Notes: generated by a model not told the origin, from the sequence alone. A DNA stretch of 47,603 nucleotides from an uncultured Candidatus Saccharibacteria bacterium (GCA_964452735.1 CAYVNA010000004.1:1-47603), one strand, 5' to 3'; shown: positions 1 to 47,603, counted from the stretch's first letter. Numbers and translations: made by a program.

Positions 1-52
1 GAGCAAACGGCTGTTAACCGTTCGGTTCCAGGTTCGAATCCTGGTCGCGGAG
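1..52 (+). tRNA. tRNA-Asn (anticodon GUU), 3' portion only; the 5' end is off the window
   Basis: Anticodon stem AACGG/CCGTT with loop CTGTTAA (GTT at positions 34-36). T arm CCAGG-TTCGAAT-CCTGG. Acceptor 3' strand TCGCGGA plus discriminator G. No encoded CCA. Confidence 0.8.
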
Positions 53-6958: not shown

Positions 6959-9070
6959 ATGAAAAATGTTAAAAAGATACCCAAGTATTACATATCTCTC
7001 TTAATCGCTTTTCTTCTCCTTACAATTACAACTGTCCTCTATATCAACATTCTCCGAATTACAAAATTAGCAAATGAAAAACCTCAGGATTTGGTATTTG
7101 CAAACATTTCAACTGTAGAGACAAAGATATACTGGAAAAGCAATACGGAAACAATATACAGAATCTCATACAAACCCAAAAGAGATACTGGATTATTTAA
7201 GACAATATATGACTATTCAATATATACAGATAATGTAAAAAAACAAAGGGTATATGAGATTCCGCTATCAGAGTTAATTCCCGAAACAGAATATATCTTA
7301 AGAGTAGAGGATGAGAATTCTAGGTGGAAAGAAGAGTATACCTTTTCCACAAGAAGCATTGCTGAAGAAATAGATATACCAAATATACAAACAGGTACTA
7401 GTTCCATTATGTCCTTCCTGCTTGTTGATATTGATGGTGATATGTATATGCTTGATACACAGTACCATGGGACATGGGCATTTGATTCAAAAGGAAAGGA
7501 ATATACTACAAGAAGATATTCCACATACATTACAAATACTGAACTATCAGCAAGCCTAAATGACCTACTAATCACTCCACTATATGCTGCATCTGGAGCC
7601 AACTGCAAAACAGGAATCAAAGTAAATGATACTTCATACACTCCATCAAAAGACAAGGTTGTAGATATTCTAAAAAGATTTGTTTCTGGATGTCCAGAGG
7701 GTACATACGCTCAACAATGCTATGAAGATGTATATTGCAGATCGATAAAAGCAGGTGTAGATCCAGCATTTGCCATTACAATATGGACCAATGAGTCTGG
7801 AGGAAGTAATTATGCATATCGACCTAGGGTTGGAGATTTCGGTATAGCCAACGAAAGTATTGTTCCATACAGTGATTTTGACAAACAACTCTCCCAGTTT
7901 CTTAAAATAGTATCTGATCCATCATATATACAAAACTGTTCTAAAGATAGTAACTATTCCGCAACTGTAAAATGGGGAGCCAAGTTCTTAACAGGAGACT
8001 GTAATTCAACAGCCAATTTGGAGAAAGGAAGGGAATATATGTCTAGTATATCCAATATATACAAATGGTATAACAGTACAAGGCTCCCACTATGGCCATT
8101 TAACACAACACCTAATTCAAATATATGTGATTACTCCAATGCTAAGACAAATACAACATATAATTCTTGCACAGCACAAGGCTCTTCCAACACATCACCT
8201 TCTAATAGTGAAAGTGATACTCCAAAAGAGAGTAAAACTAATGTACCCACTGGTGGAGATGGTATAAAGGACTATATGATCGTATCTGGTTCTGGAGTTA
8301 CTCCTAAAGATAGGAATTGTAAGGATCCAGATGGTTGTATCTGCCTATACAAATATAACTCTAGTTCAGAATCTACTCTCACAATTAAGAATGGATATAC
8401 TTGCACAACAGATAAGAAAGTAATCGTAACCCCTGTTGATCAAAAGGTTTGTTGTCTAAAAGACGATACAGCTTCATACCAACTATTATCAAAATGCGAT
8501 GGGAAAGTTCTGGAAAGTGTAAAAGAGATTGATTGTAAGGTAGTTAATAAAACCATGGAAATAGGCCAAGGAATCAATTTCATAAAGACAAACTATATAC
8601 TGGATACTTCCCCTACAAAACTAGACACAGCATATTCCATTATAAATAGCTCTGTTAACAATATACTTGCAGTCGGATCATTTAGAAATGATACTTGGGA
8701 GAACATAGTGAAGAATGAAAATGGAACGATAAGTGGAGGAGATTTCCCAATATCCTCAGAGAATGTCTATATGATAGTCTCAAAGGAGTCCTTCTCCCTT
8801 CCAGTGTTGTATGTGAAGATGGAACCAAGTGTTAAAATAGATACATTGGTTGGTTGGAACTTAGTACCATCTGAATCTTTTAGTAATGCTGGTAATAATT
8901 CAAAATCAATATTACAAAGCACTCAGTATACAAATGTAAAACAGGTTGCTGTATGGAATAATGGAACAAGTATATTTGATTACACCATAAAGGATAATTC
9001 GGGAAGCATATATGGAGAACAAACCCCTATTAGCAACATAGATGGTATTTTTGTAAAAGTTTCCCAATAA
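6959..9070 (+). CDS. Large membrane-anchored secreted protein: N-terminal TM, FN3-like domain, lysozyme/transglycosylase-like segment, Cys-rich and Asn/Ser/Thr-rich C-terminal region
   Basis: Signal anchor YYISLLIAFLLLTITTVLYI. FN3-like PQDLVFANISTVETKIYWKS...YILRV. PAFAITIWTNESGGSNYA resembles a lysozyme-like catalytic Glu-Ser segment. Many Cys lie between residues 450 and 530. Confidence 0.7.
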   Translation: MKNVKKIPKYYISLLIAFLLLTITTVLYINILRITKLANEKPQDLVFANISTVETKIYWKSNTETIYRISYKPKRDTGLFKTIYDYSIYTDNVKKQRVYEIPLSELIPETEYILRVEDENSRWKEEYTFSTRSIAEEIDIPNIQTGTSSIMSFLLVDIDGDMYMLDTQYHGTWAFDSKGKEYTTRRYSTYITNTELSASLNDLLITPLYAASGANCKTGIKVNDTSYTPSKDKVVDILKRFVSGCPEGTYAQQCYEDVYCRSIKAGVDPAFAITIWTNESGGSNYAYRPRVGDFGIANESIVPYSDFDKQLSQFLKIVSDPSYIQNCSKDSNYSATVKWGAKFLTGDCNSTANLEKGREYMSSISNIYKWYNSTRLPLWPFNTTPNSNICDYSNAKTNTTYNSCTAQGSSNTSPSNSESDTPKESKTNVPTGGDGIKDYMIVSGSGVTPKDRNCKDPDGCICLYKYNSSSESTLTIKNGYTCTTDKKVIVTPVDQKVCCLKDDTASYQLLSKCDGKVLESVKEIDCKVVNKTMEIGQGINFIKTNYILDTSPTKLDTAYSIINSSVNNILAVGSFRNDTWENIVKNENGTISGGDFPISSENVYMIVSKESFSLPVLYVKMEPSVKIDTLVGWNLVPSESFSNAGNNSKSILQSTQYTNVKQVAVWNNGTSIFDYTIKDNSGSIYGEQTPISNIDGIFVKVSQ

Positions 9071-22299: not shown

Positions 22300-23619
22300 A
22301 TGACTTTAACAGAGGCAGCATTCTGGACTAAAAGATTTGGAGTTATTGCATTGGGGGCTTTTGCCATATTTTTGATAGTAATCCTTTTACTAACTCTTAG
22401 ACAGGAAGATGCTATGCCACCGGAATACCTCACAGCAAATTACGCATGTACAGAAAAAAGAGAAGACTTCTTGAGCGAGAAGTTAGAGATACCTTCATTG
22501 AATCTAGCCGACGGATCAGAAATGGTCTTCGAGATAAATACGGATACTGGGAAGATCGAGTCAATTCCTCAGATTGTTAATGTATATAGGTTCAACAACC
22601 CAACACAGTCATTGAGTGCACAGGCAGATGCAAAAATACTTTCAAAGAAGCTTGGATTTGATCCAGATTCCATAATTAGGAGAGGTACACAAAGCTATGT
22701 ATGGGTTGATAGGGATACTGGGAGAACACTTGAGATCCAAGCAAAGAATCTTAACCTTTCTTTAAAGACAGATCCTGCAGTAATTAGAGAAGCATTAAAT
22801 ACAGGGAATCTTCCATCAGAGCAAGAAGCTAAGACAAGAGCTGCAAATGCATTGCGTACTCTTGGGATATACACAGACGATTATTCCAGTGGGAATCACC
22901 AAACAACATATATAGATATTAATCCTGACGGATCTTTTAGTAAGGCTGCTTCTGCATCCGAAGCTGAGTTGATTAGAGTAGATTTTGTAAGGAAGAAATC
23001 GATGATAACGATATCTTCAAATATAGTAGGTGCTGAGACTATGGTACAAACGCTGTCGAAGAAGCTTCCAGAAGCTCCGGCGGTAGAGTCTAGAATTATC
23101 AATGATGAGAAGATTTCAATATCCACATTTAATACCTTGGTATCTTTTCCACAAACACAAAGGAGTAATATATCAGTATATGTTGGAGCACTATATAAGG
23201 GAACAAAGTTGAATTCCTCAATCAGCACAATATACCAGATAGATTATACATACTGGCCCATCGAAGTAGATGCCTGTGGTACATACGAGCTCATCTCTCC
23301 ACAAACAGCAATAGAAAAAATCCAATCAGGAGAAGGAAGTCTAGCATATCTCTACGAGAAAGGTGGAGATGATGTTGTAGAATATACTCCTCAGAGAGTA
23401 AAGAAGTTTCTAATACTCGATGTTAATCTCGTATATTACGAGTCGTGGAATGAATCTAATTATCTACAGCCAGTATATGTAGTTTCAGGAGAAGCCATAT
23501 TGAGTAATGACACAAAGGCTCTTTTTGATTACTACTATCCAGCTATCAATTATTCCATAGTGCAAGACAAGATTGAATTACCTGAACCAGAGATAGTTGA
23601 AAGCAATTCCCTATTCTAG
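22300..23619 (+). CDS. Hypothetical membrane-anchored extracytoplasmic protein
   Basis: 439-aa ORF with one N-terminal TM (FGVIALGAFAIFLIVILLLTL). No recognised domain. Confidence 0.65.
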   Translation: MTLTEAAFWTKRFGVIALGAFAIFLIVILLLTLRQEDAMPPEYLTANYACTEKREDFLSEKLEIPSLNLADGSEMVFEINTDTGKIESIPQIVNVYRFNNPTQSLSAQADAKILSKKLGFDPDSIIRRGTQSYVWVDRDTGRTLEIQAKNLNLSLKTDPAVIREALNTGNLPSEQEAKTRAANALRTLGIYTDDYSSGNHQTTYIDINPDGSFSKAASASEAELIRVDFVRKKSMITISSNIVGAETMVQTLSKKLPEAPAVESRIINDEKISISTFNTLVSFPQTQRSNISVYVGALYKGTKLNSSISTIYQIDYTYWPIEVDACGTYELISPQTAIEKIQSGEGSLAYLYEKGGDDVVEYTPQRVKKFLILDVNLVYYESWNESNYLQPVYVVSGEAILSNDTKALFDYYYPAINYSIVQDKIELPEPEIVESNSLF

Positions 23620-31347: not shown

Positions 31348-32592
31348 ATGATGAAGAAACTATCAAAAAAAGATCTTGTATTTGTTAAAAACCTCTTTCT
31401 AACAACTATATTAGGAGGAATAATAGGTGTATTGAACTATTATTTTAATGTTTTCATAGCTAGGTATACAGATCAAAATATATTTGGGATATTCAGTTCT
31501 ACCTTAGGAGTAATATATCTACTTCAGATACCAGCATCTTCTATACAAGCATTGATAACTAAGCAGATAGCACAAAATAGAAGTAAAAACCTCTACCATT
31601 ACAAGTGGTATTCATTATTACTTTTCTCCCTAATGGGAGTTATCTTCTCAATATTATTCTTCTTGAATAAGGATGTTATATCAACAGTTGCAACAATCCC
31701 TTCAGAAACAATAATATATCTCGCTATAACATTCCTTTTTGCATTTGTAAGCCCAATAGCAAAGGGTTTACTTCTAGGACTAGAGAAAATAGGTACCGTT
31801 AATATTGTTTTGCTATTAGAAACAATTCTCAAGTTTGTAATAGGGGGTATAGCAATAAGGATGGGAGGATCCCTATCTTTACTAATTCTGGCAAATTCCA
31901 TTCCATCAATAATTTCCTCCATTATAATAATCCCACTTATTAAACTAGAGAGGGGTAATCATGAGAAGGTTAAGATAAGCTACAAAGAATTGCTTCTAAT
32001 TGCAGTATCTTTCCTTTTATTAACTGCTCCATTCACGATTGACTTGATACTTGTAAATCCTGAATTTCGTGCAGAGTATGCAGCGATATCATTACTTGGA
32101 AAGCTAGTATATTTCGCATCTATAACAACAGCCTCTGTGATGTTTGCAAGGTTAACAAATGAGAACATTGAGAAGGATCAGAAAAAGAGTTTAGCAATTT
32201 CATTAGCACTTTCACTTCTCATTGGGCTTTTTATCTCCTTAGTATATTTTCTATTTAGTGGCTATGTTGTTGACCTTACAGTAGGAAATACATATAACAT
32301 CATACAGAAATATATAGGGATGTTTGGATTGTGCATGACAGGTTTTGCTTTTGTATATATGGTTGCTAACTATTTCATTTCAAGAGGTTTCTTCCGATAT
32401 CTATACATCCTTTGTATTACAACTGCACTACAAATTTCTCTTTTTGTTTTGAGGAATGATTCTTTGGATGAGGTTATACAGAATCAGGCTATTGTATATT
32501 TGTTTCTTACTTCTGTTACCTTAGTCTATTTATTATCTAAGTTGGGTATTTTTTCAAATGGAATTAGAGAAAAGAATAGAGAAGAGAGCTAA
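31348..32592 (+). CDS. Polysaccharide/oligosaccharide flippase (Wzx/MOP superfamily)
   Basis: 414 aa, about 12 TM segments, with size and layout typical of Polysacc_synt proteins. Confidence 0.7.
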   Translation: MMKKLSKKDLVFVKNLFLTTILGGIIGVLNYYFNVFIARYTDQNIFGIFSSTLGVIYLLQIPASSIQALITKQIAQNRSKNLYHYKWYSLLLFSLMGVIFSILFFLNKDVISTVATIPSETIIYLAITFLFAFVSPIAKGLLLGLEKIGTVNIVLLLETILKFVIGGIAIRMGGSLSLLILANSIPSIISSIIIIPLIKLERGNHEKVKISYKELLLIAVSFLLLTAPFTIDLILVNPEFRAEYAAISLLGKLVYFASITTASVMFARLTNENIEKDQKKSLAISLALSLLIGLFISLVYFLFSGYVVDLTVGNTYNIIQKYIGMFGLCMTGFAFVYMVANYFISRGFFRYLYILCITTALQISLFVLRNDSLDEVIQNQAIVYLFLTSVTLVYLLSKLGIFSNGIREKNREES

Positions 32593-33040
32593 GAAAGTGA
32601 GTTCTGATTTTAAGAATTTTGCATTTAAGGAAGCCACATTAGGTGCTGCTATTGGTATCATGATGGGTGCTGCTTTCAGAGATGTAGTTAATTCATTTGT
32701 TAAGGATATCCTGACTCCTCCTATTGCTTTCTTAACATCGGGGATAGATTTTACAAAGCTCTTTTGGGTCATTGGCGAAGAGAAGTTTGAGGATATTGAG
32801 GAGGCATTAGAGAGTAACGCTACAGTTATCTATTATGGTAATTTCATAAACGAGTTTATATCTTTCATCATAACAGCATTAATACTGTTCATACTTGCAT
32901 TTCAAATAACAAAAGTTATTAATAGGTCCAAGAAGAAAGAAGAGGAAAAACAGGATAGGAAGGAAAAAGTATGTCCATATTGCCTATCGGAGATAAATAT
33001 CAAAGCTACTAGATGTCCTTTCTGTACATCAAAGGTATAG
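32558..33040 (+). CDS. mscL: Large-conductance mechanosensitive channel MscL with a C-terminal CxxC-x10-CxxC zinc-ribbon tail
   Basis: FKNFAFKEATLGAAIGIMMGAAFRDVVNSFVKDILTPPI is the MscL TM1 signature. The C-terminus reads CPYCLSEINIKATRCPFC. The true start may be GTG near 32597, since the track ORF overlaps the flippase by 35 nt. Confidence 0.85.
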   Translation: MELEKRIEKRAKKVSSDFKNFAFKEATLGAAIGIMMGAAFRDVVNSFVKDILTPPIAFLTSGIDFTKLFWVIGEEKFEDIEEALESNATVIYYGNFINEFISFIITALILFILAFQITKVINRSKKKEEEKQDRKEKVCPYCLSEINIKATRCPFCTSKV

Positions 33041-33045
33041 TCCAC

Positions 33046-33119
33046 TGGACGATACAAGATTCGAACTTGTGACCTCCGCAATGTGAATGCGATGCTCTAA
33101 CCAGCTGAGCTAATCATCC
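33046..33119 (-). tRNA. tRNA-Val (anticodon CAC)
   Basis: Minus strand: GGAUGAU acceptor, GCUCAGCUGGUUAGAGC D arm, anticodon loop UUCACAU, T arm ACAAG-UUCGAAU-CUUGU. No encoded CCA. Confidence 0.9.
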
Positions 33120-33332
33120 TTAACTAGTTTTATCCTCTTCTTCAGGAGCAATTACCTCACTATCCTTTTCCTTCTTCTCTCCTTCCCCTTTTAATTTATT
33201 CCACATCAGAATGAAAACAACTAAAAGAAAAGGAAATGATATACCAACAAATATGTTCTTTGTAATAATTGCAGCAAGCAAACCAAGTAGAAGACAACCG
33301 ATACCAACTAGAACTAACCTCCCTGCAGTCAT
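33120..33332 (-). CDS. Small two-TM membrane protein with an acidic/lysine-rich tail
   Basis: 70-aa ORF, 17 nt downstream of the giant gene and abutting tRNA-Val. Confidence 0.5.
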   Translation of the reverse strand: MTAGRLVLVGIGCLLLGLLAAIITKNIFVGISFPFLLVVFILMWNKLKGEGEKKEKDSEVIAPEEEDKTS

Positions 33333-33349
33333 TATAGTTTAATAATAAA

Positions 33350-36300
33350 TTAATACTTCTTAACAACTATCTTCCTACATAAAATATAGTTGTTTTTATT
33401 AACATTAACAAGAGAACCACCCTTAATATCAGAATCCCCATATCCCTCAGCATCAACAGACATACTATATTTCCCTTTATCCAAGATAAACCTATACCTA
33501 CCCTTACTATCTGTCACACGAACAGCTACTACCTTGTCAAAATCCATCTCCCGAAGAGTTACAGAAACACCTTCCACAGAATCTCCCTTCTGATCTACAA
33601 CCTTCCCATACCTATCTTGGTTATTAAAGATTGATCTCAGGATTACAACTAGAGGAATAATATACATGATTAAGAGAATCAAATTCTCTATATTAGGAAA
33701 TATACTGTATGTATACATTGATATTGAAATACCTGTTAAGAAGATTAAAACATTAAAAACAAGAATGATTCTCTTGAAGATATTTCGTAAGGAAGAGAAA
33801 TGTTTAGATACACCAGAGATCTCTTTACTATCAATAGGTATGGCTAATTGTATATCCCCACTATCTTTACCTATTACAAGATTCCCCTGATATATGTTTT
33901 GGATTGGATAGTCTTCTAAGCCCTTAACTATACTACTAGGGAAAATATATCCTGACTTCGAGACTGTGAGATTATATTTCCCATTCTTCAAGAATCCAAA
34001 GAATCTCCCATTAATATCTGTTACCAAAGTTTCAACAAGCTTCCCCTTAGAATCAAAGACCCTAACCATTGCCATATGAACAGGATTTTTAGTTACAGAA
34101 TCATATACAAAACCATACCCCAATCTCTTTCTTATAAAACCTAGAGAGCTCAAGAATATACTAATTAATTGAATCATACCATACCATGTCTGAGATAGTC
34201 CGCCAAGAAGGAGAGTTACACTCACTGTTGCAGTAACGACATTCCCTGCTACAGAAACTCTCTTAAGATCTTTTTCCTCTAGCTTATCTATACCCAAACT
34301 ACTAGCGATATCAACTATCCGATTCTTTAGAACATCAAGGATCTGCGGAGAAGATGAAACTTCTTTATCTGGAACTTCCTTATCTGGGCTTTCTCCAACA
34401 TAATTCTTGTCTTCATGTATATAGCCAAGACCGCCAGTCCCTGTTATACCGTCCACAACCCAATACTCTACACCTCCTATTATAGCCTGAGAAACTGATA
34501 GCTTGCCTTCTTTGTAGTCCACACTTTGAGGAAAATTCCCTGTGAACCTTATTCCCTCGGGACAATCAAGAGTCACTTCTTCCAGAGTCTTTGCCAATGG
34601 ACATATTAGAAATGCATTTGTAGAATCCTTATATACATACATTGTATATGGCTTAACAACACCATGAGATTCAGAAAGTTTAACAACAGTCTTTCTCTCA
34701 TCTACAGAACTAAGAACAACAGCATCTCCCCAATCCCTATCCTGATCAAAAAGAGTTGGGATATCAGCAACTAAATACTCCTCCATCTTCAGTCTAACAA
34801 TCTTTTCCCCATACTGCCCATTTTGAGGTAGAGTAACATCTATGTCCTCACTTGAAGCAAGAGTAACTTTCAATGATGGAGCAACATTCTTTATGATAGC
34901 TGAAGTCCCTACATACACAGGATCACTCCAGTCAGTATTGTTCATATTGAAATTTCTAGCTCTAGCAGAAAAAGAATACTGTTTCCCTACTTCCAAACCA
35001 TTCACTACAATACCATTTGTATTCCCTAACTGAGATATTGTTGCCCACTTCTGACTTTGTGATAGGGAGTTTGACTGATAATCTAGGAACAATCCACTGT
35101 TATTCTCCCTAATTAAATACTCTGTTGTAGAAGGATTGGTCAATGAATCTACGAATATTCTCGCAGAATTACTAGAAATAGATTCTATCTTAGCGATACC
35201 TGGTTTATTAGCAAAAGTATATGAAGAAACAGAAGGAGACCAACCTGTAACTACACCAACAGAATTGTTACTTCTAACCTTAAACTCATATTTTGTATTA
35301 GGCAACAACCCAACAACATCTATAGAGGAAACATATGAAAAAACTTTCTGAGTAGAAGATAGGACACCAAAAGTACTGTCTAGATGTTTTCCACTTAGAT
35401 TCTCAAATACCTCTATACTATCCCTATTATTCCCTACAATACTGATTCTCAGAGTTTCCGAATTAACTGGTGCAATACTAGAGATACTAGAAGACCCTGG
35501 AGATGTTGTGAAGAGGAAGACGTTTGAGAAATCACTCTCAGTATTATTATTGAATACCTTAGCCTTCCTTTGATATGTAGTATTTGAAAAAAGATTCTCC
35601 TCTAGGCAGTTTGTCATCTGATCAATTAAGCATGTTTTAAGAAGAGTTCCTGTTTGATCGTAAATCCTATACCCAATCTTATATATATTACCATCCACTA
35701 TCTTCCAGAGTATCTTCTTATCTGTAATCTCCAATGTTTGGATATCACTTGGGGGATCTAGTTTAGTTACAGCATCTAGAGATCCTGAGTATTCAGTCTC
35801 AATACCACTACCGTTTTTTGATTTTACATAGAATGAATACTTAACACCTTTCTCAAAGTCATTTATCAAGACTCCTTCACTTCCTCCAAACTCTTCGTAT
35901 GTACCCCATACGGCATCTTCTACTAAGAGATTTGTTTGGAAATCAACATATTTATCTGTGGATTCCTCATAGAGGATATATGGAGCATCTGCAGAGTTCA
36001 TCTCATCTAAAGCTATCTTCAATGATGTACTTCCTCTTTCCAAAAGTATTGGTGCGTTAGGGGCTGATAGTAGAGTATATGTTGTAGCAGTCCCAGAGGG
36101 AACGCTTGTTCCTATTTCATTGTATGCCTGGATCTTCCTTGTATAGGGGGTATTTTCATCCAAACTTGATTCATCGCAATATGTAAGGTTCTCTCCTAGA
36201 CAATACTTTACGAAGTTCTCATTTTCGTCTAAAAGGATAAAGCCATCTTCATTCTTTGCATTATCAGTAAAATACCATCTTATTGTGTTTATAGATAGAG

Positions 36301-37444
36301 CCTCAGGTTCCCCTATTGTTGGAGAAATTGGTGGGGTATCCATGGTGAAAGACGCAGTTAAAGACCATGCACTTACCCCTTCTGAACTATCCCAGAACCT
36401 TATTCTCCAGTAGTATGTACTTCCATCGTGTGATAGTGGGGTCCCAGCATATGAGATATCTGATGATCTACTTCCATTGGTGATTGCTGATATATCTTGT
36501 TTTTCACTATCCCACATCAAAGTGCCTGTAAAATCCGATTTGGTATTTACTTGTATTTGATAATATACTCCTACATCTTCAGTATCTGGATCACTAAATA
36601 TTGCACTAAATTCTGGTGTAAGATCTCTCACTTCAGTTGGTGTTACTTGTCCCTCTATTAAAAGTTCATCAGGAGCGTCAGGCAAGGTATTTGCTGTCAT
36701 TTCACTTTCAACTGTTGTTGGTATCGATATTTTTCTCTCTATGAATACAGTAGTTACATATTCTGGAAGATTACTAGCTTCAGGCGTTGTATATGAATAC
36801 GTTCCACAACTTGTTCTTCCACCTGAACTCGTATCATATCCATCAGCGGTACTAGAAGCAGATCCTACTGTCATACTCCCAGTATGAGTATGGGTGGCAG
36901 ATCCACCTGTAGTACCAGCAACCTCAGATCCCATAGGGAATTTCTCATTTAATTGATCGAAGTTATTCCAACCCAAAGGAGGTAGAGAATCTGCCATACT
37001 AACGAAATCGGGTAAATAACTATTATTTAATTCTGCTTGTAGATAATTTACAGTATAGTACGGAGGAAGATTATCAGAAGCACTAGAAGTTGATGAACCC
37101 AATGCATGTGTGTGTGCAGGTCTAGCGAAATTCGGTTGTCCAGCATCGGCATCTGAGTTTGAAGTAGCCGAGTTAGATCCAACACTGGTTTGCCCCGCTG
37201 GAGTAGTGTGATAATGAGAGGAACTACCACCAGAAGTACCATATGTACTAGAACCTCTTGGGAACTTATTATCTAATTCCGAGGTATGATCCCAACCCTC
37301 TGGTATCTCTGAAGATGTAGACATTGCAATTGAATATTGAAAATACGTTATTTTATTGTTTTTACAAAAAATCGTACTTAAATATGGTGGAATAATTGAT
37401 TCTGTTGAAGTAGTTATATCGATGCTATGCGTATGTGTATACAA
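33350..37444 (-). CDS. Giant cell-surface protein, major (C-terminal) part: tail-collar-like repeat modules 2-3, a rhamnosidase-N-like/FN3 array, and a C-terminal TM block with two CarboxypepD_reg-like domains
   Basis: 1364-aa ORF whose listed start is TTG with no signal peptide. Its first 27 residues (YTHTHSIDITTSTESIIPPYLSTIF) are the tail of a repeat module that begins in the upstream ORF. See findings. Confidence 0.85.
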   Translation of the reverse strand: MYTHTHSIDITTSTESIIPPYLSTIFCKNNKITYFQYSIAMSTSSEIPEGWDHTSELDNKFPRGSSTYGTSGGSSSHYHTTPAGQTSVGSNSATSNSDADAGQPNFARPAHTHALGSSTSSASDNLPPYYTVNYLQAELNNSYLPDFVSMADSLPPLGWNNFDQLNEKFPMGSEVAGTTGGSATHTHTGSMTVGSASSTADGYDTSSGGRTSCGTYSYTTPEASNLPEYVTTVFIERKISIPTTVESEMTANTLPDAPDELLIEGQVTPTEVRDLTPEFSAIFSDPDTEDVGVYYQIQVNTKSDFTGTLMWDSEKQDISAITNGSRSSDISYAGTPLSHDGSTYYWRIRFWDSSEGVSAWSLTASFTMDTPPISPTIGEPEALSINTIRWYFTDNAKNEDGFILLDENENFVKYCLGENLTYCDESSLDENTPYTRKIQAYNEIGTSVPSGTATTYTLLSAPNAPILLERGSTSLKIALDEMNSADAPYILYEESTDKYVDFQTNLLVEDAVWGTYEEFGGSEGVLINDFEKGVKYSFYVKSKNGSGIETEYSGSLDAVTKLDPPSDIQTLEITDKKILWKIVDGNIYKIGYRIYDQTGTLLKTCLIDQMTNCLEENLFSNTTYQRKAKVFNNNTESDFSNVFLFTTSPGSSSISSIAPVNSETLRISIVGNNRDSIEVFENLSGKHLDSTFGVLSSTQKVFSYVSSIDVVGLLPNTKYEFKVRSNNSVGVVTGWSPSVSSYTFANKPGIAKIESISSNSARIFVDSLTNPSTTEYLIRENNSGLFLDYQSNSLSQSQKWATISQLGNTNGIVVNGLEVGKQYSFSARARNFNMNNTDWSDPVYVGTSAIIKNVAPSLKVTLASSEDIDVTLPQNGQYGEKIVRLKMEEYLVADIPTLFDQDRDWGDAVVLSSVDERKTVVKLSESHGVVKPYTMYVYKDSTNAFLICPLAKTLEEVTLDCPEGIRFTGNFPQSVDYKEGKLSVSQAIIGGVEYWVVDGITGTGGLGYIHEDKNYVGESPDKEVPDKEVSSSPQILDVLKNRIVDIASSLGIDKLEEKDLKRVSVAGNVVTATVSVTLLLGGLSQTWYGMIQLISIFLSSLGFIRKRLGYGFVYDSVTKNPVHMAMVRVFDSKGKLVETLVTDINGRFFGFLKNGKYNLTVSKSGYIFPSSIVKGLEDYPIQNIYQGNLVIGKDSGDIQLAIPIDSKEISGVSKHFSSLRNIFKRIILVFNVLIFLTGISISMYTYSIFPNIENLILLIMYIIPLVVILRSIFNNQDRYGKVVDQKGDSVEGVSVTLREMDFDKVVAVRVTDSKGRYRFILDKGKYSMSVDAEGYGDSDIKGGSLVNVNKNNYILCRKIVVKKY

Positions 37445-37608
37445 AGAGAAAGAACGGTCCCCGTTTCCAATATCTACTCTATACTAGCTCCAGTAATAGT
37501 ATCTGTTATATTATGAGAATGCGAAGAGGATCCCCCAGTAGTCCCATATGTATTAGATCCAAATGGGAATCTGTCATCATATTCACTAGCTCTAGTCCAA
37601 CCTTCTGG
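36731..37608 (-). repeat. Three tandem protein-level repeat modules of about 95-105 aa: PxGW...FPxGS...GxxGGSxxHxH...HxH...N-L-P-x-Y
   Basis: Module starts: PEGWTRASEYDDRFPFGSNTYGTTGGSSSHSH, PEGWDHTSELDNKFPRGSSTYGTSGGSSSHYH, PLGWNNFDQLNEKFPMGSEVAGTTGGSATHTH. Module ends: IIPPYLSTIF, NLPPYYTVNYL, NLPEYVTTVFI. Confidence 0.8.
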
Positions 37609-38115
37609 ACATAATACTGTAGACATAACTATAAAGTTGCCATCCCAAACTTCTTCTCCTGAAGTTGCACTACTATTTCCGTAGTATGAATATATTGTAT
37701 ATTCCCCTATAGGCATCGATGGTATCTTTACCCATATCTGTGTATTATCTGTATTACATTCTCCTTCTATCCAATATTCTAGTAGAGTTGTATCATCTTT
37801 ATCTACAAATCTTAAGTCTGAACAATCGGAATTAAGTTTACTATTTGATATCAATATAGAGGTATCCATTACAACTAATACCTCTTCATCTATCAATGTC
37901 GCACTAGTACCATTCTCCATGCTTATTGCTTTTCTATATCCCCAATTGGAATCATACCAAGCTATACTGGTTATTGACTTGGATAGATAGAGATAGACAG
38001 CTACAGGAAGAAGTATGATTATTATGAATACACTACATATTACAAGAATCTTTCTCCAGTTTTTGTACTTTGATCTTTTTGTCATGACGGCAGTATATGT
38101 ACAGTTTATATACAT
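37474..38115 (-). CDS. N-terminal part of the same giant surface protein: TM anchor, DUF2341 domain, start of repeat module 1
   Basis: WGYRKAISMENG...DLRFVDKDDTTLLEYWIEG...IWVKIPSMP...IYSYYGN is the DUF2341 pattern. The probable start is Met11 (MTKRSKYKNW, nt 38085) ahead of the TM. The ORF ends at TAG 37476-37474, in the middle of a repeat module. Confidence 0.8.
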   Translation of the reverse strand: MYINCTYTAVMTKRSKYKNWRKILVICSVFIIIILLPVAVYLYLSKSITSIAWYDSNWGYRKAISMENGTSATLIDEEVLVVMDTSILISNSKLNSDCSDLRFVDKDDTTLLEYWIEGECNTDNTQIWVKIPSMPIGEYTIYSYYGNSSATSGEEVWDGNFIVMSTVLCPEGWTRASEYDDRFPFGSNTYGTTGGSSSHSHNITDTITGASIE

Positions 38116-38243: not shown

Positions 38244-38280
38244 TTGTAATTAGACCTCGTATTATACTACAAAAGATCTG

Positions 38281-38367
38281 CCGGGGACAGGAGTTGAACC
38301 TGCACGGGAGTATAAATCCCACTACCACCTCAAGGTAGCGTGTCTGCCAATTCCACCACCTCGGCTT
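38281..38367 (-). tRNA. tRNA-Leu (anticodon GAG), class II with a long variable arm
   Basis: Minus strand: GCCGAGG acceptor. Anticodon stem CUACC/GGUAG with loop UUGAGGU. Long variable arm GGGAUUUAUACUCCC. T loop UUCAACU. Confidence 0.88.
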
Positions 38368-38479: not shown

Positions 38480-39235
38480 CTAATCTGTAATATATGGAGA
38501 CAAACTAATTGTCCCTAAATCTGTTACTTGGTTTTCCTTAATCGTAAAAGTTACTAAATTCCCTCCATATTCTGAAGAATTAACCAACTGATCTGGCACA
38601 TTCCCAGACCCTCCTAGCTTCGTAAGATAATCCTTAAATAGGCTCCTAATACTGGAGCAATATTTAGCGACATTCGCAGCATTATCCTCTCCACCATCAG
38701 CATAATAGACGCATTGCCTTAACGAATATACCTGATATGCATTTTTCCCGTCCTGATATACAGTATAGTCTACGGAATAAGTTCCAACAGGAAGAGTATC
38801 TTGTCCATTTTCTAAATCATTAGAATAGTTTGTTTTATCGCTATCTCCTTTTCTCCAAAAACAATACTGCTCAGATATCTCTTTCGTATTAGTAAAACAT
38901 AATCTGACAGCAGGTGTTCCTTCACTAGGGAAAGCAAAAGCTACTTTGAAATTTCCTGTCTTTACAGTATCTTTGCTTTCATCTTCTTTCACTTGTGTAT
39001 CGGTATCTGTCGTAGTATCTGTTTTGTCACTTGCAGTATCTGTTTTAATTATCCCTGAGAGTAAATCTATCCCGTTATCCTTCAATACATAATATGTTAA
39101 TCCACCAATTAAACAGATGATTAGAAATATCATTATCCCTACAAAACCTCTCTTACTTGGTTTAGATATCTCTACCTTAGGCTCCAAAGCAACTGGAGCT
39201 GGACTCTCCATACTGTTTTCTATCTGAGTTTCCAT
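38480..39235 (-). CDS. Hypothetical membrane-anchored extracytoplasmic protein with a Thr/Asp-rich linker
   Basis: 251-aa ORF. TM FVGIMIFLIICLIGGLTYYVL. TDTASDKTDTTTDTDT linker. Cys-containing C-terminal domain. Confidence 0.65.
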   Translation of the reverse strand: METQIENSMESPAPVALEPKVEISKPSKRGFVGIMIFLIICLIGGLTYYVLKDNGIDLLSGIIKTDTASDKTDTTTDTDTQVKEDESKDTVKTGNFKVAFAFPSEGTPAVRLCFTNTKEISEQYCFWRKGDSDKTNYSNDLENGQDTLPVGTYSVDYTVYQDGKNAYQVYSLRQCVYYADGGEDNAANVAKYCSSIRSLFKDYLTKLGGSGNVPDQLVNSSEYGGNLVTFTIKENQVTDLGTISLSPYITD

Positions 39236-42891: not shown

Positions 42892-44022
42892 CTATTTGTC
42901 TAACCTAAGAGCACAATTACATATATATAGAGGACACTTAGGAGGATTTCCAATCTCCCTCCATGAGCTTAATTCCTCTCGTTTTATTAACTTGTTTACA
43001 AGATATGAAGGATACACATCCTCTCTGTACTCCTCTATTACATCTGTCGTTATCCTCATAGACTTAAGCATTTGTACTATGTAAAGAAGTTTGAATCTCG
43101 AAAGTAAGTAGTGATTCCATCTGTAGAAGAGCAATGACTCTTCGTTGTTTACCTTTATTAACTTCTTCACAATCTCTCCTCTTGGGAAATATTTAGAATT
43201 ACTGTACAGCTCTTTACCATATACATACTCACGCATATTCTTAGTTGCAGAAGGAAAGAGAGAACAGAAAAGTAGGTGTAAGGTATCCAACTTAACAGTG
43301 TATAGAGGATCAAGGGAATCTGCTACAAGCACACTTCCTTTTTTCCCTCTCAGTATCATTTCCTCTAGAAGAGATGCATATTCATCTTCAGAAAGATACG
43401 CAGTACCATGGCTAGAGAAAAAACCATCAAAATAGTTACTAGGTTGTTTCTTTGTAAATTCAACAAAATCATCCAATACAATTGTAATATTTTCTTCTTT
43501 TGTTGAATAATTTTTTACACTTTCTCCTTTAAGATATGTCTGCCAAGGTATTTGGTAATAGTCTAGTGTGTTTTGAGTAGCAACAATTGAGTGAGGAGAG
43601 ATATCTACAGATACGAGTTCAATCTTTTTATCTGGGAATTTCTTTTTCAATTGGTTATTAAGCATCAAGGTTGACCATCCTGCACCTGGACCGTATTCTA
43701 AAACTCGAACGGTATCACCTTCGACTTTAATATTCTCAACAAGGAAATCAATATTGTTTAATGCTGTTTTTAGAGATGTAGGATTTAATCCTTTACCAAA
43801 CATTCTCATAATTTCAAACTCATCCCATCTTTCTGCTATCTTTATACCCGATTTCTTACTAAGCAAGAAAAGATAATACTCACCACACTTTCTTAAAAAA
43901 AGATTCTTTAAGGATACATTTACTAATGGGATGTCGGGAGCAATTTTGCTATACACTTCTTCAAGTTTAAGGTCTCTCTTCTTTAGCCAATACTTTTGTT
44001 TTCGTTCATCGCTTTGAATCAT
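42892..44022 (-). CDS. Putative SAM-dependent methyltransferase-like protein
   Basis: VLEYGPGAGWSTLML (motif I-like) followed by VSVDIS. Its stop lies 2 nt before the kinase start codon. Confidence 0.6.
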   Translation of the reverse strand: MIQSDERKQKYWLKKRDLKLEEVYSKIAPDIPLVNVSLKNLFLRKCGEYYLFLLSKKSGIKIAERWDEFEIMRMFGKGLNPTSLKTALNNIDFLVENIKVEGDTVRVLEYGPGAGWSTLMLNNQLKKKFPDKKIELVSVDISPHSIVATQNTLDYYQIPWQTYLKGESVKNYSTKEENITIVLDDFVEFTKKQPSNYFDGFFSSHGTAYLSEDEYASLLEEMILRGKKGSVLVADSLDPLYTVKLDTLHLLFCSLFPSATKNMREYVYGKELYSNSKYFPRGEIVKKLIKVNNEESLLFYRWNHYLLSRFKLLYIVQMLKSMRITTDVIEEYREDVYPSYLVNKLIKREELSSWREIGNPPKCPLYICNCALRLDK

Positions 44023-47551: not shown

Positions 47552-47603
47552 GGAGTGGTAGCTCAATTGGTTAGAGCATCTCACTGTCACTGAGAAGGTT
47601 GCG
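47552..47603 (+). tRNA. tRNA-Asp (anticodon GUC), 5' portion only; the 3' end is off the window
   Basis: GGAGUGG acceptor, GCUCAAUUGGUUAGAGC D arm, anticodon stem UCUCA/UGAGA with loop CUGUCAC. Confidence 0.85.

What the first reader, a model, noticed from the sequence alone, without database searches (positions are those of the whole stretch)
33350..38115. Two adjacent ORFs appear to encode one surface giant of about 1,580 aa, membrane-anchored at both ends
Read together, the 213-aa and 1364-aa minus-strand ORFs give one coherent architecture. It starts with an N-terminal TM anchor and a DUF2341 domain (WGYRKAI...LRFVD...YWIE...IWVKIP...YYGN). Three tandem HxH modules follow. Next comes a domain with the grammar seen at rhamnosidase N-termini (PEFSAIFSDPD...YYQIQV...MWDSEK...YAGTPL...YYWRIRFWD...SAWS...FTMD). 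After that are roughly six FN3-like repeats (recurring ...Y.F.V.S.N..G....S pattern). The protein ends in a block of about 330 aa, where hydrophobic helices alternate with two CarboxypepD_reg/transthyretin-like domains (GFVYDSVTKNPVHMAMVRVFDSKGKLVETLVTDINGRFFGFLKNGKYNLTVSKSGY and GKVVDQKGDSVEGVSVTLREMDFDKVVAVRVTDSKGRYRFILDKGKYSMSVDAEGY). The second ORF alone has no signal peptide or TM at its N-terminus, so the domain logic only works if the two are joined. I do not recognise this combination as a described protein family. In a small-genome organism it is a plausible host- or partner-cell contact structure.
Basis: partly seen in the sequence, partly recalled or inferred. Interest (0 to 1): 0.7.

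Follow-up and report, generated by a model that had tools for sequence, protein, structure and literature searches.

The report
Broken Dojkabacteria surface-protein gene
The two neighbouring reading frames are one gene for a roughly 1,595-residue cell-surface protein of a tiny candidate-phylum bacterium, broken here by a 4-base deletion; its conserved tip resembles histidine-rich units in the suspected host-recognition proteins of one phage.

Summary
ORF1 (37474-38115, minus strand) and ORF2 (33350-37444, minus strand) are fragments of one gene. Three near-identical relatives (98% aa) carry an uninterrupted 1,595-aa ORF. The window differs from them by a 4-nt deletion at about 37485, which causes the frameshift, and by an 18-nt in-frame deletion at about 36808, which removes one HxH motif. 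Two positional orthologues are also single ORFs. Pfam supports DUF2341, Ig_Rha78A_N, fn3 (five repeats, not six) and two CarboxypepD_reg domains, all above the curated cut-offs. The three HxH modules match no Pfam, NCBIfam or PHROG family and no PDB sequence. They are the conserved core of a large family (2,726 cluster representatives), nearly always in sets of three after a DUF2341, with all 12 histidines conserved. A confident AlphaFold2 model matches only Pas28 and Pas29 of Actinoplanes phage phiAsp2; Pas29 is annotated as a possible receptor-recognising protein. The host is a Dojkabacteria (CPR) bacterium. The most likely function is a fast-evolving surface adhesin or host-recognition protein, recently inactivated in this strain. 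"Anchored at both ends" is uncertain: the N-terminal helix looks like a cleavable signal peptide. Function, metal binding and topology are inferred, not shown.

The parts
37474..38115 (-). ORF1: N-terminal fragment of the gene (213 aa), holding the signal/anchor segment, DUF2341 and the first half of HxH module 1
   Evidence: identical in register to residues 1-211 of the intact P0001
33350..37483 (-). ORF2 frame: C-terminal 1,376 codons of the same gene. NCBI annotates only 1,324 aa, starting at an internal Met.
37484..37485 (-). Site of the 4-nt deletion (CTAT in relatives: GGA GCT ACT ATG TAT -> GGA GCT A|GT ATA GAG TAG) that causes the -1 frame break
36808..36809 (-). Site of the 18-nt in-frame deletion that removes 'RAHNHG', the second HxH of module 3
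37984..38085 (-). Basic n-region plus a 22-residue hydrophobic segment: a signal peptide or signal-anchor
37621..37959 (-). DUF2341 beta-sandwich domain
   Evidence: 58.1 bits; AF2 pLDDT above 90
37349..37644 (-). HxH module 1 (HSH...HTH), interrupted by the frameshift
37025..37348 (-). HxH module 2 (HYH...HTH), intact
36719..37024 (-). HxH module 3 (HTH; second HxH deleted)
36338..36661 (-). Ig_Rha78A_N-type Ig-like domain
   Evidence: 62.4 bits
34892..36337 (-). Five FN3-like repeats of two alternating subtypes
34403..34891 (-). Conserved 163-aa domain with no family in Pfam
33353..34258 (-). C-terminal membrane block: 40-aa hydrophobic stretch + RRKR, CarboxypepD_reg 1, two TM helices, CarboxypepD_reg 2
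33120..33332 (-). 70-aa two-TM protein 17 nt downstream, conserved in position in orthologous loci; a possible operon partner
33046..33119 (-). tRNA-Val(cac), conserved directly after the small TM gene in orthologous loci

Best explanation
The two ORFs are one gene of a Candidatus Dojkabacteria (Patescibacteria/CPR) chromosome. It encodes a roughly 1,595-aa exported, membrane-tethered surface protein. SHOWN: the gene is split by a 4-nt deletion and carries a second, 18-nt deletion, while relatives and positional orthologues have it intact. SHOWN: the architecture, in order, is a Sec-type N-terminal hydrophobic segment; a 'head' made of a DUF2341 beta-sandwich plus three tandem ~105-aa HxH modules; one Ig_Rha78A_N domain; five FN3-like spacers; an unclassified beta domain; and a conserved multi-pass C-terminal membrane block with two transthyretin-like (CarboxypepD_reg) domains. 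INFERRED: the DUF2341 + 3xHxH head is the ligand-recognition unit. The three modules fold together as a single-chain pseudo-trimer. Their six HxH motifs would form two His6 metal sites, like those on the three-fold axis of trimeric phage tail fibres. The head sits at the far end of the FN3 stalk, which is rooted in the membrane by the C-terminal block, and binds a surface structure (probably a glycan) of the partner or host cell. INFERRED: in this strain the gene is a recently inactivated pseudogene. ORF1 would give an exported stump, and ORF2 lacks any export signal.
For: One gene:
- Three intact 1,595-aa alleles exist at 98% aa and 98.9% nt identity.
- Syntenic orthologues P0010 (1,829 aa) and P0016 (2,134 aa) are single ORFs. 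They share the downstream small TM gene, tRNA-Val(cac), MscL, a flippase-like gene and RmuC.

Domains.

Head unit:
- DUF2341 is followed by three modules in essentially all homologues.
- In the top 150 of 2,726 representative hits, the number of module stretches is 3 in 110 proteins, 6 in 20 and 4 in 14. Where checked among the first-search homologues, proteins with four stretches carry a Gly_rich_2 (PF21722) hit and an insert splitting one module.
- All 12 histidines are invariant or at least 90% conserved across 26 cassettes that are only 30-42% identical.
- The AF2 cassette model has pLDDT 85 and pTM 0.79, which fits a compact unit rather than beads on a string.
- Foldseek BFVD hits Pas29 (E 1.8e-17) and Pas28 (E 3.9e-13) of phage phiAsp2.
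- hhalign of the module profile against Pas29 gives 96.6% probability, E 5e-10.
- The GenBank record calls Pas29 a 'possible receptor recognizing protein; contains HXHY motifs; similar to phage TuIa tail fiber'.
- HxH motifs coordinate iron in the trimeric T4 gp37 tip (cited in PMC11705849).

Surface or host-interaction role:
- This is the fastest-evolving gene in a conserved neighbourhood. It is 31-40% identical to its orthologue where RmuC is 80% identical.
- Against L001, dN/dS is 0.23 compared with 0.064 in the flanking genes, at equal dS.
- Several 0.7-Mb genomes carry multiple paralogues.
- DUF2341 has been proposed in the literature as an adhesin domain (PMC4858521, PMC11809585).

Taxon: the window's enolase is 90% identical to a Dojkabacteria enolase.

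Pseudogene:
- The only two indels in 8.2 kb of alignment both hit the HxH region, and neither lies in a homopolymer.
- No hydrophobic segment occurs in the first ~1,070 residues of ORF2.
Against: - No experiment or characterised homologue supports adhesion. No ligand is known.
Foldseek against the PDB found nothing (best E 1.5e-3, TM 0.2). Sequence hits to T4 gp37 and a phage structural protein are not significant (E 2.4 and 1.1).
- The HxH modules match no phage-fibre Pfam or PHROG family.
- The C-terminal topology is unresolved. The AF2 model of that block is poor (pLDDT 64, pTM 0.37), and the positive-inside rule would place both transthyretin-like domains in the cytoplasm, which is unusual.
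- The broken state rests on a single assembly (a MAG contig), so an assembly artefact is not excluded.
- A dN/dS of 0.23 shows the gene was under purifying selection for most of the divergence, so any inactivation must be recent.
Confidence: 0.7

Rival explanations
1. The frameshift, and perhaps the 18-nt gap, is an assembly or sequencing artefact of this MAG contig. The organism really has an intact 1,595-aa gene.
For: The only interrupted copy among four cluster members is the one on this 47,603-bp NCBI contig. The rest of the reading frame is fully open. dN/dS is 0.23.
Against: The deletions are 4 nt and 18 nt in non-repetitive, non-homopolymer sequence. No other indel occurs in 8.2 kb of alignment, which contains 71 substitutions and thus marks a distinct strain. 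Two separate lesions in one 0.95-kb stretch is not the pattern of random sequencing error.
Confidence: 0.2
2. The split is functional. ORF1 and ORF2 are expressed as two separate proteins that act together.
For: NCBI annotates a 1,324-aa product from an internal Met.
Against: The break lies inside HxH module 1, between its two invariant HxH motifs. ORF2 has no signal peptide or TM before residue ~1,070. No convincing ribosome-binding site precedes the TTG or the internal ATG (direct reading). All relatives and orthologues are single ORFs.
Confidence: 0.04
3. Programmed -1 ribosomal frameshifting joins the two ORFs during translation.
For: The frames differ by -1, and a small hairpin (37453-37465) lies downstream of the ORF1 stop.
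Against: There is no X XXY YYZ slippery heptamer in the 8-nt window where the shift would have to occur (A GCT AGT ATA GAG TAG). Close relatives encode the junction in frame with 4 extra nucleotides. The hairpin has only 5 bp, and such sites are found at about the chance rate (5 found against 3.0 expected).
Confidence: 0.02
4. The gene is a prophage or phage tail-fibre gene rather than a cellular surface protein.
For: The HxH modules are homologous to those of phage phiAsp2 Pas28 and Pas29.
Against: The neighbours are housekeeping genes: aminoacyl-tRNA synthetases, RecJ, enolase, RmuC and MscL. This order is conserved across species, and none of the neighbouring genes scanned matched a phage-type family. 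The protein has an N-terminal export signal and a C-terminal multi-pass membrane block. No PHROG family matches.
Confidence: 0.03

Closest known systems
Pas29 and Pas28 of Actinoplanes phage phiAsp2 (AY576796). Pas29 is annotated as a possible receptor-recognising protein with HxH motifs, similar to the T-even (TuIa/gp37) tail fibre.
   Same: Three tandem modules share the same grammar (P.GW..LD..FP.G...GG..THxH ... HTH ... PPY). The predicted structures are similar (Foldseek E 1.8e-17 and 3.9e-13, TMq 0.47-0.48). Profile homology is supported (hhalign 96.6%).
   Different: The phage proteins lack a Pfam DUF2341 hit, the TM segments, the FN3 stalk and the CarboxypepD_reg block. They sit next to the major tail protein in a phage genome. 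Their modules carry extra HxH motifs. Their function is itself only predicted.
HxH metal sites of trimeric phage fibres (T4 gp37 receptor-binding tip, PDB 2XGF; T4 gp12)
   Same: Conserved paired His-x-His motifs sit in a Ser/Thr/Gly-rich beta structure. Three motifs per site would be available here because the modules come in threes.
   Different: Here the three motif-bearing units are in one chain, not three. There is no significant sequence similarity (E 2.4), no PDB fold match, and no hit to phage-fibre Pfam families. Metal binding is untested.
Large DUF2341-containing proteins of Patescibacteria and archaeal type IV pilus loci, proposed to be adhesins (PMC11809585, PMC4858521)
   Same: A DUF2341 domain above the Pfam threshold, a large multi-domain extracellular protein in an ultrasmall-genome organism, and a proposed adhesion or host-interaction role.
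   Different: The literature does not describe the triple HxH cassette or the C-terminal TM/CarboxypepD_reg block. No type IV pilus genes were found among the window's ten longest ORFs, and no prepilin-type signal was seen.
Gram-positive stalked adhesins (signal peptide, ligand-binding head, repeat stalk, C-terminal anchor; e.g. MSCRAMM/SdrD type)
   Same: The same overall logic of head, repeat stalk and anchor. The transthyretin-like domains give weak SdrD_B and SpaA hits.
   Different: There is no LPxTG sortase motif. Anchoring is by a multi-pass membrane block, and the head domains are unrelated.
GH78 alpha-L-rhamnosidases (Rha78A)
   Same: They share the N-terminal Ig-like domain PF25788 (62.4 bits).
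   Different: There is no catalytic domain. The NCBIfam rhamnosidase equivalogs score 31.5 and 17.6 bits against cut-offs of 1,800 and 1,720.

Membership tests
DUF2341 (PF10102) domain-containing proteins | Match to the Pfam HMM above the gathering score | tested here: met
   58.1 bits against a cut-off of 23.4, residues 97-154. The same family is precomputed for most of the listed homologues, 58 of 64.
Fibronectin type III (PF00041) | Whole-protein score above the gathering score; individual repeats recognisable | tested here: met
   The whole protein scores 50.6 bits against 25. Single repeats score 14.6, 15.3, 22.9 and 17.7 bits, and one gives no hit. That makes five FN3-like repeats, each weak on its own.
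CarboxypepD_reg / transthyretin-like (PF13620) | HMM match above the gathering score | tested here: met
   Two copies score 36.2 and 43.9 bits individually against a cut-off of 32.3.
GH78 alpha-L-rhamnosidase | Catalytic (alpha/alpha)6 domain; NCBIfam equivalog score | tested here: not met
   Only the N-terminal Ig domain matches. The scores are 31.5 bits against 1,800 and 17.6 bits against 1,720.
Phage tail-fibre HxH metal-binding fibres (T4 gp37 / gp12 type) | Conserved HxH motifs | tested here: met
   Six HxH per cassette, with all 12 His invariant or at least 90% conserved in 26 diverged cassettes.
Phage tail-fibre HxH metal-binding fibres (T4 gp37 / gp12 type) | Significant sequence or fold match to a solved fibre or a curated phage-fibre family | tested here: not met
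   No Pfam hit at E<=10 and no PHROG hit. PDB sequence hits have E 1.1 and 2.4. Foldseek against the PDB gives a best E of 1.5e-3 and TM 0.2.
Phage tail-fibre HxH metal-binding fibres (T4 gp37 / gp12 type) | Three HxH motifs converge on an axis and bind Fe or Zn octahedrally | not testable with these tools
   Model coordinates are not returned. The only support is indirect: modules occur in threes and the cassette model has pTM 0.79.
phiAsp2 Pas28/Pas29-type triple-module proteins | Homologous tandem HxH modules, three per protein | tested here: met
   Foldseek E 1.8e-17 and 3.9e-13. hhalign 96.6%. Three modules are visible in both translations.
Programmed -1 ribosomal frameshift | Slippery heptamer at the shift site, with the frameshift conserved in relatives | tested here: not met
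   There is no X XXY YYZ motif in the permitted 8-nt window. Relatives are in frame with 4 more nucleotides.
Sortase-anchored (LPxTG) adhesins | LPxTG motif followed by a hydrophobic segment and a basic tail at the C-terminus | tested here: not met
   No LP.[TSA]G occurs anywhere in the protein.
Type IV pilus tip adhesins (PilY1-like, DUF2341-bearing) | Location in a T4P gene cluster; prepilin-like (class III) signal | tested here: inconclusive
   None of the ten longest ORFs of the window is a T4P component, and the neighbours are RmuC, MscL, a flippase-like gene and enolase. The N-termini look Sec-type. Smaller ORFs and the rest of the genome were not examined.
Protein anchored in the membrane at both ends | An uncleaved N-terminal TM together with C-terminal TM segments | tested here: inconclusive
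   The C-terminal hydrophobic segments are conserved in 13 homologues. The N-terminal segment is followed by an A/G/S at -1 (48/51) and a small or aliphatic residue at -3 (43/51) just before the domain starts, consistent with signal-peptidase I cleavage. No dedicated signal-peptide or topology predictor was available.

The most novel reading that the evidence does not exclude
The DUF2341 + triple-HxH cassette is an undescribed, widespread receptor-binding 'head'. In it, three tandem modules in one chain would reproduce the three-fold, metal-stapled tip of a trimeric phage tail fibre. The module is shared between phages (phiAsp2 Pas28/29) and the surface proteins of ultrasmall episymbiotic bacteria. 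On this reading, CPR bacteria recognise their host cells with the same molecular device that phages use.
Probability: 0.3. Interest if true: 0.7.

Novelty: new variant of a known kind. Interest (0 to 1): 0.45.

Why it matters
How CPR/Patescibacteria episymbionts recognise and attach to their hosts is largely unknown. This gene belongs to a large, fast-evolving, multi-paralogue family that takes up a notable share of ~0.7-Mb genomes. Its conserved head has no curated domain model, but it is homologous to suspected receptor-binding proteins of a phage. That gives a concrete, expressible ~430-residue unit to test for metal content, structure and glycan or host binding. It also suggests exchange of recognition modules between phages and host-dependent bacteria. 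For annotation, the case shows that the 1,324-aa database entry is a fragment of a disrupted gene.

Tried and rejected
- Pfam (E<=10), PHROGs and a PDB sequence search on the HxH region gave no significant family.
- tblastn of the cassette against 50,697 phage genomes returned only one DUF2341-only hit, in an archaeal virus. phiAsp2 was not recovered at sequence level.
- Foldseek against the PDB found nothing meaningful.
- The AF2 model of the C-terminal membrane block was too poor (pLDDT 64) to decide topology, so the third fold search was not spent on it.
- tRNA-Val/Leu synteny looked absent in 29 loci from the genome scan. These turned out to be paralogous or distant loci. True positional orthologues, found through the look-up of encoding contigs, do keep the synteny.
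- I checked whether the window is a circular element, because both ends lie in tRNA genes. There is no terminal overlap and the two tRNAs differ.
- I considered phase variation by repeat slippage. Neither deletion lies in a simple repeat.
- I considered a glycosidase function and rejected it because there is no catalytic domain.

Full report
**The observation**

The window holds a 213-aa ORF (37474-38115) and a 1364-aa ORF (33350-37444, TTG start), both on the minus strand.
- Their frames differ by -1.
- ORF1 ends at TAG 37474-37476.
- The ORF2 frame is open upstream only as far as a TAG at 37484-37486, so the two frames overlap in an open state for about 8 nt.
- The break falls inside a repeated module: ORF1 ends '...GGSSSHSHNITDTITGASIE*' and the ORF2 frame continues '...RVDIGNGDRSFSLYTHTHSIDITTSTESIIPPYLSTIF'. 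Together these reproduce the pattern of the next two modules.

Joined, the protein is 1,588 aa.

**Are the two ORFs one gene?**

Yes.

A search of 5.8 billion proteins with the joined sequence returned P0001, a 1,595-aa uninterrupted protein that is 98% identical over 100% of the query.
- Its 90% cluster has four members: three intact 1,595-aa proteins from independent Logan assemblies, and one 1,324-aa NCBI protein on a 47,603-bp contig. That contig is this window, with the protein annotated from an internal Met.
- The P0001 contig (L001) aligns to the window at 98.9% identity over 8.2 kb, with 71 substitutions and only two gaps.
- The first gap is a 4-nt deletion in the window: GGA GCT ACT ATG TAT AGA in the relative becomes GGA GCT A|GT ATA GAG TAG. 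This creates the frameshift.
- The second gap is an 18-nt in-frame deletion that removes 'RAHNHG', the second HxH motif of module 3.
- Neither deletion lies in a homopolymer or simple repeat.

Two more distant proteins are true positional orthologues, and both are single ORFs: P0010 (1,829 aa) and P0016 (2,134 aa).
- P0016 is followed by a 63-aa two-TM ORF, tRNA-Val(cac), MscL, a ~410-aa flippase-like gene and RmuC, as in the window.
- P0010 has the same neighbours except that no MscL gene is called there.

There is no slippery heptamer in the window where a shift would have to occur, and relatives are simply in frame. Programmed frameshifting is therefore rejected.

**Domains**

Pfam on the joined protein gives four families above their curated cut-offs:

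| Family | Score (bits) | Cut-off (bits) |
|---|---|---|
| DUF2341 | 58.1 | 23.4 |
| Ig_Rha78A_N | 62.4 | 27.4 |
| fn3 | 50.6 | 25 |
| CarboxypepD_reg (two stretches) | 68.1 | 32.3 |

- Scanned piece by piece, four of five FN3-like segments give weak fn3 hits and one gives none.
- Each CarboxypepD_reg passes on its own.
- The 163-aa domain before the membrane block has no family.
- NCBIfam shows only the Ig-domain overlap with rhamnosidases, far below the equivalog cut-offs, so this is not an enzyme of that kind.
- There is no LPxTG motif.

**The HxH modules**

This ~310-aa region has no Pfam hit even at E<=10, no PHROG hit, and no PDB sequence hit. Yet it is the most conserved part of the family.
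- Essentially every DUF2341 in the 64 homologues is followed, about 70 residues later, by three ~105-aa modules. Some proteins carry two or three such cassettes.
- In an alignment of 26 cassettes that are only 30-42% identical to the window's type, all twelve histidines of the six HxH motifs are invariant or at least 90% conserved.
- A profile of the single module, searched against 1.84 billion cluster representatives, found 2,726 proteins at E<=1e-3 and 351 at E<=1e-30.
- Among the best 150 hits, the number of matched stretches is 3 in 110 proteins, 6 in 20 and 4 in 14.
- Where checked among the first-search homologues, proteins with four stretches carry a Gly_rich_2 (PF21722) hit and an insert that splits one module.
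- Modules therefore come in threes.

An AlphaFold2 model of DUF2341 plus the three modules is confident: pLDDT 85.2 and pTM 0.79, low only in the three variable loops between the paired HxH motifs.
- Foldseek finds nothing in the PDB (best E 1.5e-3, TM 0.2).
- In the viral predicted-structure library it hits Pas29 (E 1.8e-17) and Pas28 (E 3.9e-13) of Actinoplanes phage phiAsp2.
- Both phage proteins contain three tandem modules of the same grammar.
- They sit next to the major tail protein. Pas29 is annotated as a 'possible receptor recognizing protein; contains HXHY motifs; similar to phage TuIa tail fiber'.
- Profile-sequence comparison confirms homology (hhalign 96.6%, E 5e-10).
- The only PDB sequences with any resemblance are a phage structural protein and the T4 gp37 tip, and neither hit is significant (E 1.1 and 2.4).

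In T4 gp37, HxH motifs from three chains coordinate iron on the three-fold axis (established knowledge, as summarised in PMC11705849).

My inference is that here three modules in one chain form a pseudo-trimer with two His6 metal sites. This is not shown. It rests on the rule of three, the invariant histidines and the compact model. I could not inspect coordinates.

**Ends of the protein**

The C-terminal ~330 residues are well conserved in 13 homologues. In order they contain:
- a 40-aa Thr/Ala/Val-rich hydrophobic stretch ending in RRKR;
- CarboxypepD_reg 1;
- a basic stretch;
- two TM helices joined by a short Y-x-x-x-P loop;
- a basic stretch;
- CarboxypepD_reg 2.

If the first stretch crosses the membrane once, the positive-inside rule puts both transthyretin-like domains in the cytoplasm. 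If it is a hairpin, both lie outside. The AF2 model of this block is poor (pLDDT 64, pTM 0.37). It draws the stretch as one long helix, but I do not rely on that.

At the N-terminus, a basic n-region and a ~22-residue hydrophobic segment are followed 8-10 residues later by the first Trp of DUF2341.
- The residue before that Trp is A, G or S in 48 of 51 homologues.
- Position -3 is T, V, S, G, A or L in 43 of 51.
- This fits a signal-peptidase I site.

So 'anchored at both ends' is not secure. I think a head-stalk-anchor arrangement, with a cleaved signal peptide, is at least as likely. It also makes better mechanical sense for a recognition protein.

**Organism and context**

- The window's enolase is 90% identical to one named Candidatus Dojkabacteria.
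- The genome scan puts most cassette-bearing loci in Dojkabacteria/WS6 and other Patescibacteria. A few MAGs carry other labels, and DUF2341-only matches occur in DPANN archaea.
- Several genomes have two or three paralogues, for example two on one 724-kb contig.
- The neighbours in the window are housekeeping genes, and none of those scanned matched a phage or pilus family.

**Evolutionary rate**

- Between the window and L001, synonymous divergence is the same in the big gene and its neighbours (0.026). dN/dS is 0.23 in the big gene against 0.064 in the neighbours.
- In the syntenic locus L083, RmuC is 80% identical and the flippase-like gene 54%. The big gene is only 40% identical in its C-terminal part and 31% in its N-terminal part.
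- No relative between 47% and 98% identity was found.

This is the pattern expected of an exposed interaction protein.

**State of the gene in this window**

Both indels in 8.2 kb fall within the ~0.95-kb HxH region. One breaks the frame and the other deletes an otherwise nearly invariant motif. ORF2 has no export signal.

I read this as recent inactivation in this strain. I put about 0.2 on the alternative that one or both deletions are assembly artefacts. Only read mapping can settle this.

**Comparison with known systems**

It works like a stalked surface adhesin or receptor-binding protein. Membership tests give the following.
- It is a member of the DUF2341, fn3, Ig_Rha78A_N and CarboxypepD_reg domain families.
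- It is not a rhamnosidase, not a sortase substrate, and not a recoding site.
- Its HxH modules are homologous to those of phiAsp2 Pas28 and Pas29.
- They could not be shown to belong to the solved T4-type fibre families.

The literature mentions large DUF2341 proteins of Patescibacteria, and archaeal pilus loci, as likely adhesins (PMC11809585, PMC4858521). The papers I read that mention DUF2341 in this context do not describe the triple-HxH cassette.

**Verdict**

- The gene is an ordinary member of a large, uncharacterised CPR surface-protein family, and it is broken in this strain.
- The part worth following up is the family's conserved head: a DUF2341 + 3xHxH unit with a phage connection.
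- Novelty: a new variant of a known kind.
- Interest: 0.45.

Noticed in passing
window 36808-36809 (minus strand): Besides the frameshift, the window's allele has an 18-nt in-frame deletion that removes 'RAHNHG', the sixth HxH motif. That motif is at least 90% conserved across the family.
   Followed up: yes
window 38279-38366; L001 1-722: Homology between the window and the 98.9%-identical contig L001 stops at the 5' end of tRNA-Leu(gag). The 719 nt upstream in L001, which include a 168-aa ORF, match nothing in the window. This marks a strain-level rearrangement or insertion boundary at a tRNA gene.
   Followed up: partly
window 33120-33332 (minus) and 33046-33119 (minus): A 70-aa two-TM protein with an acidic tail lies 17 nt downstream of the big gene, followed by tRNA-Val(cac). 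Both are conserved in position in the orthologous loci L083 and L085 (63-aa homologues, 22-37% identical). The small protein may be an operon partner of the C-terminal membrane block.
   Followed up: partly
window 32558-33040 (plus): The MscL homologue carries a C-terminal CxxC...CxxC tail (KVCPYCLSEINIKATRCPFCTSKV) with weak zinc-ribbon Pfam hits. Its start overlaps the end of the flippase-like gene (31348-32592) by 35 nt.
   Followed up: no
P0002, P0003, P0019, P0021, P0027, P0028 and others (homologues, not in the window): In many paralogues a glycine-rich domain (Pfam PF21722) is inserted inside HxH module 2, between its two HxH motifs. In P0013, P0014, P0016 and P0024 each module is ~145 aa long with four or five HxH motifs. 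The head unit therefore tolerates large insertions in its variable loop.
   Followed up: partly
window 34403-34891 (minus): A conserved 163-aa domain with a Cys pair lies between the last FN3-like repeat and the membrane block. It has no Pfam family.
   Followed up: no
window 1-52 and 47552-47603: The window is a whole NCBI contig of 47,603 bp. Both ends are cut inside two different tRNA genes. There is no terminal overlap, so the contig is not circular.
   Followed up: yes
window 38480-39235 (minus): A 251-aa protein with one TM segment and a Thr/Asp-rich linker lies upstream of the tRNA pair. It has no Pfam family and is absent from the corresponding position in L001.
   Followed up: no
window 6959-9070 (+), 22300-23619 (+), 42892-44022 (-): Three long ORFs (703, 439 and 376 aa) have no Pfam family at E<=1e-5, in an otherwise housekeeping neighbourhood.
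   Followed up: no
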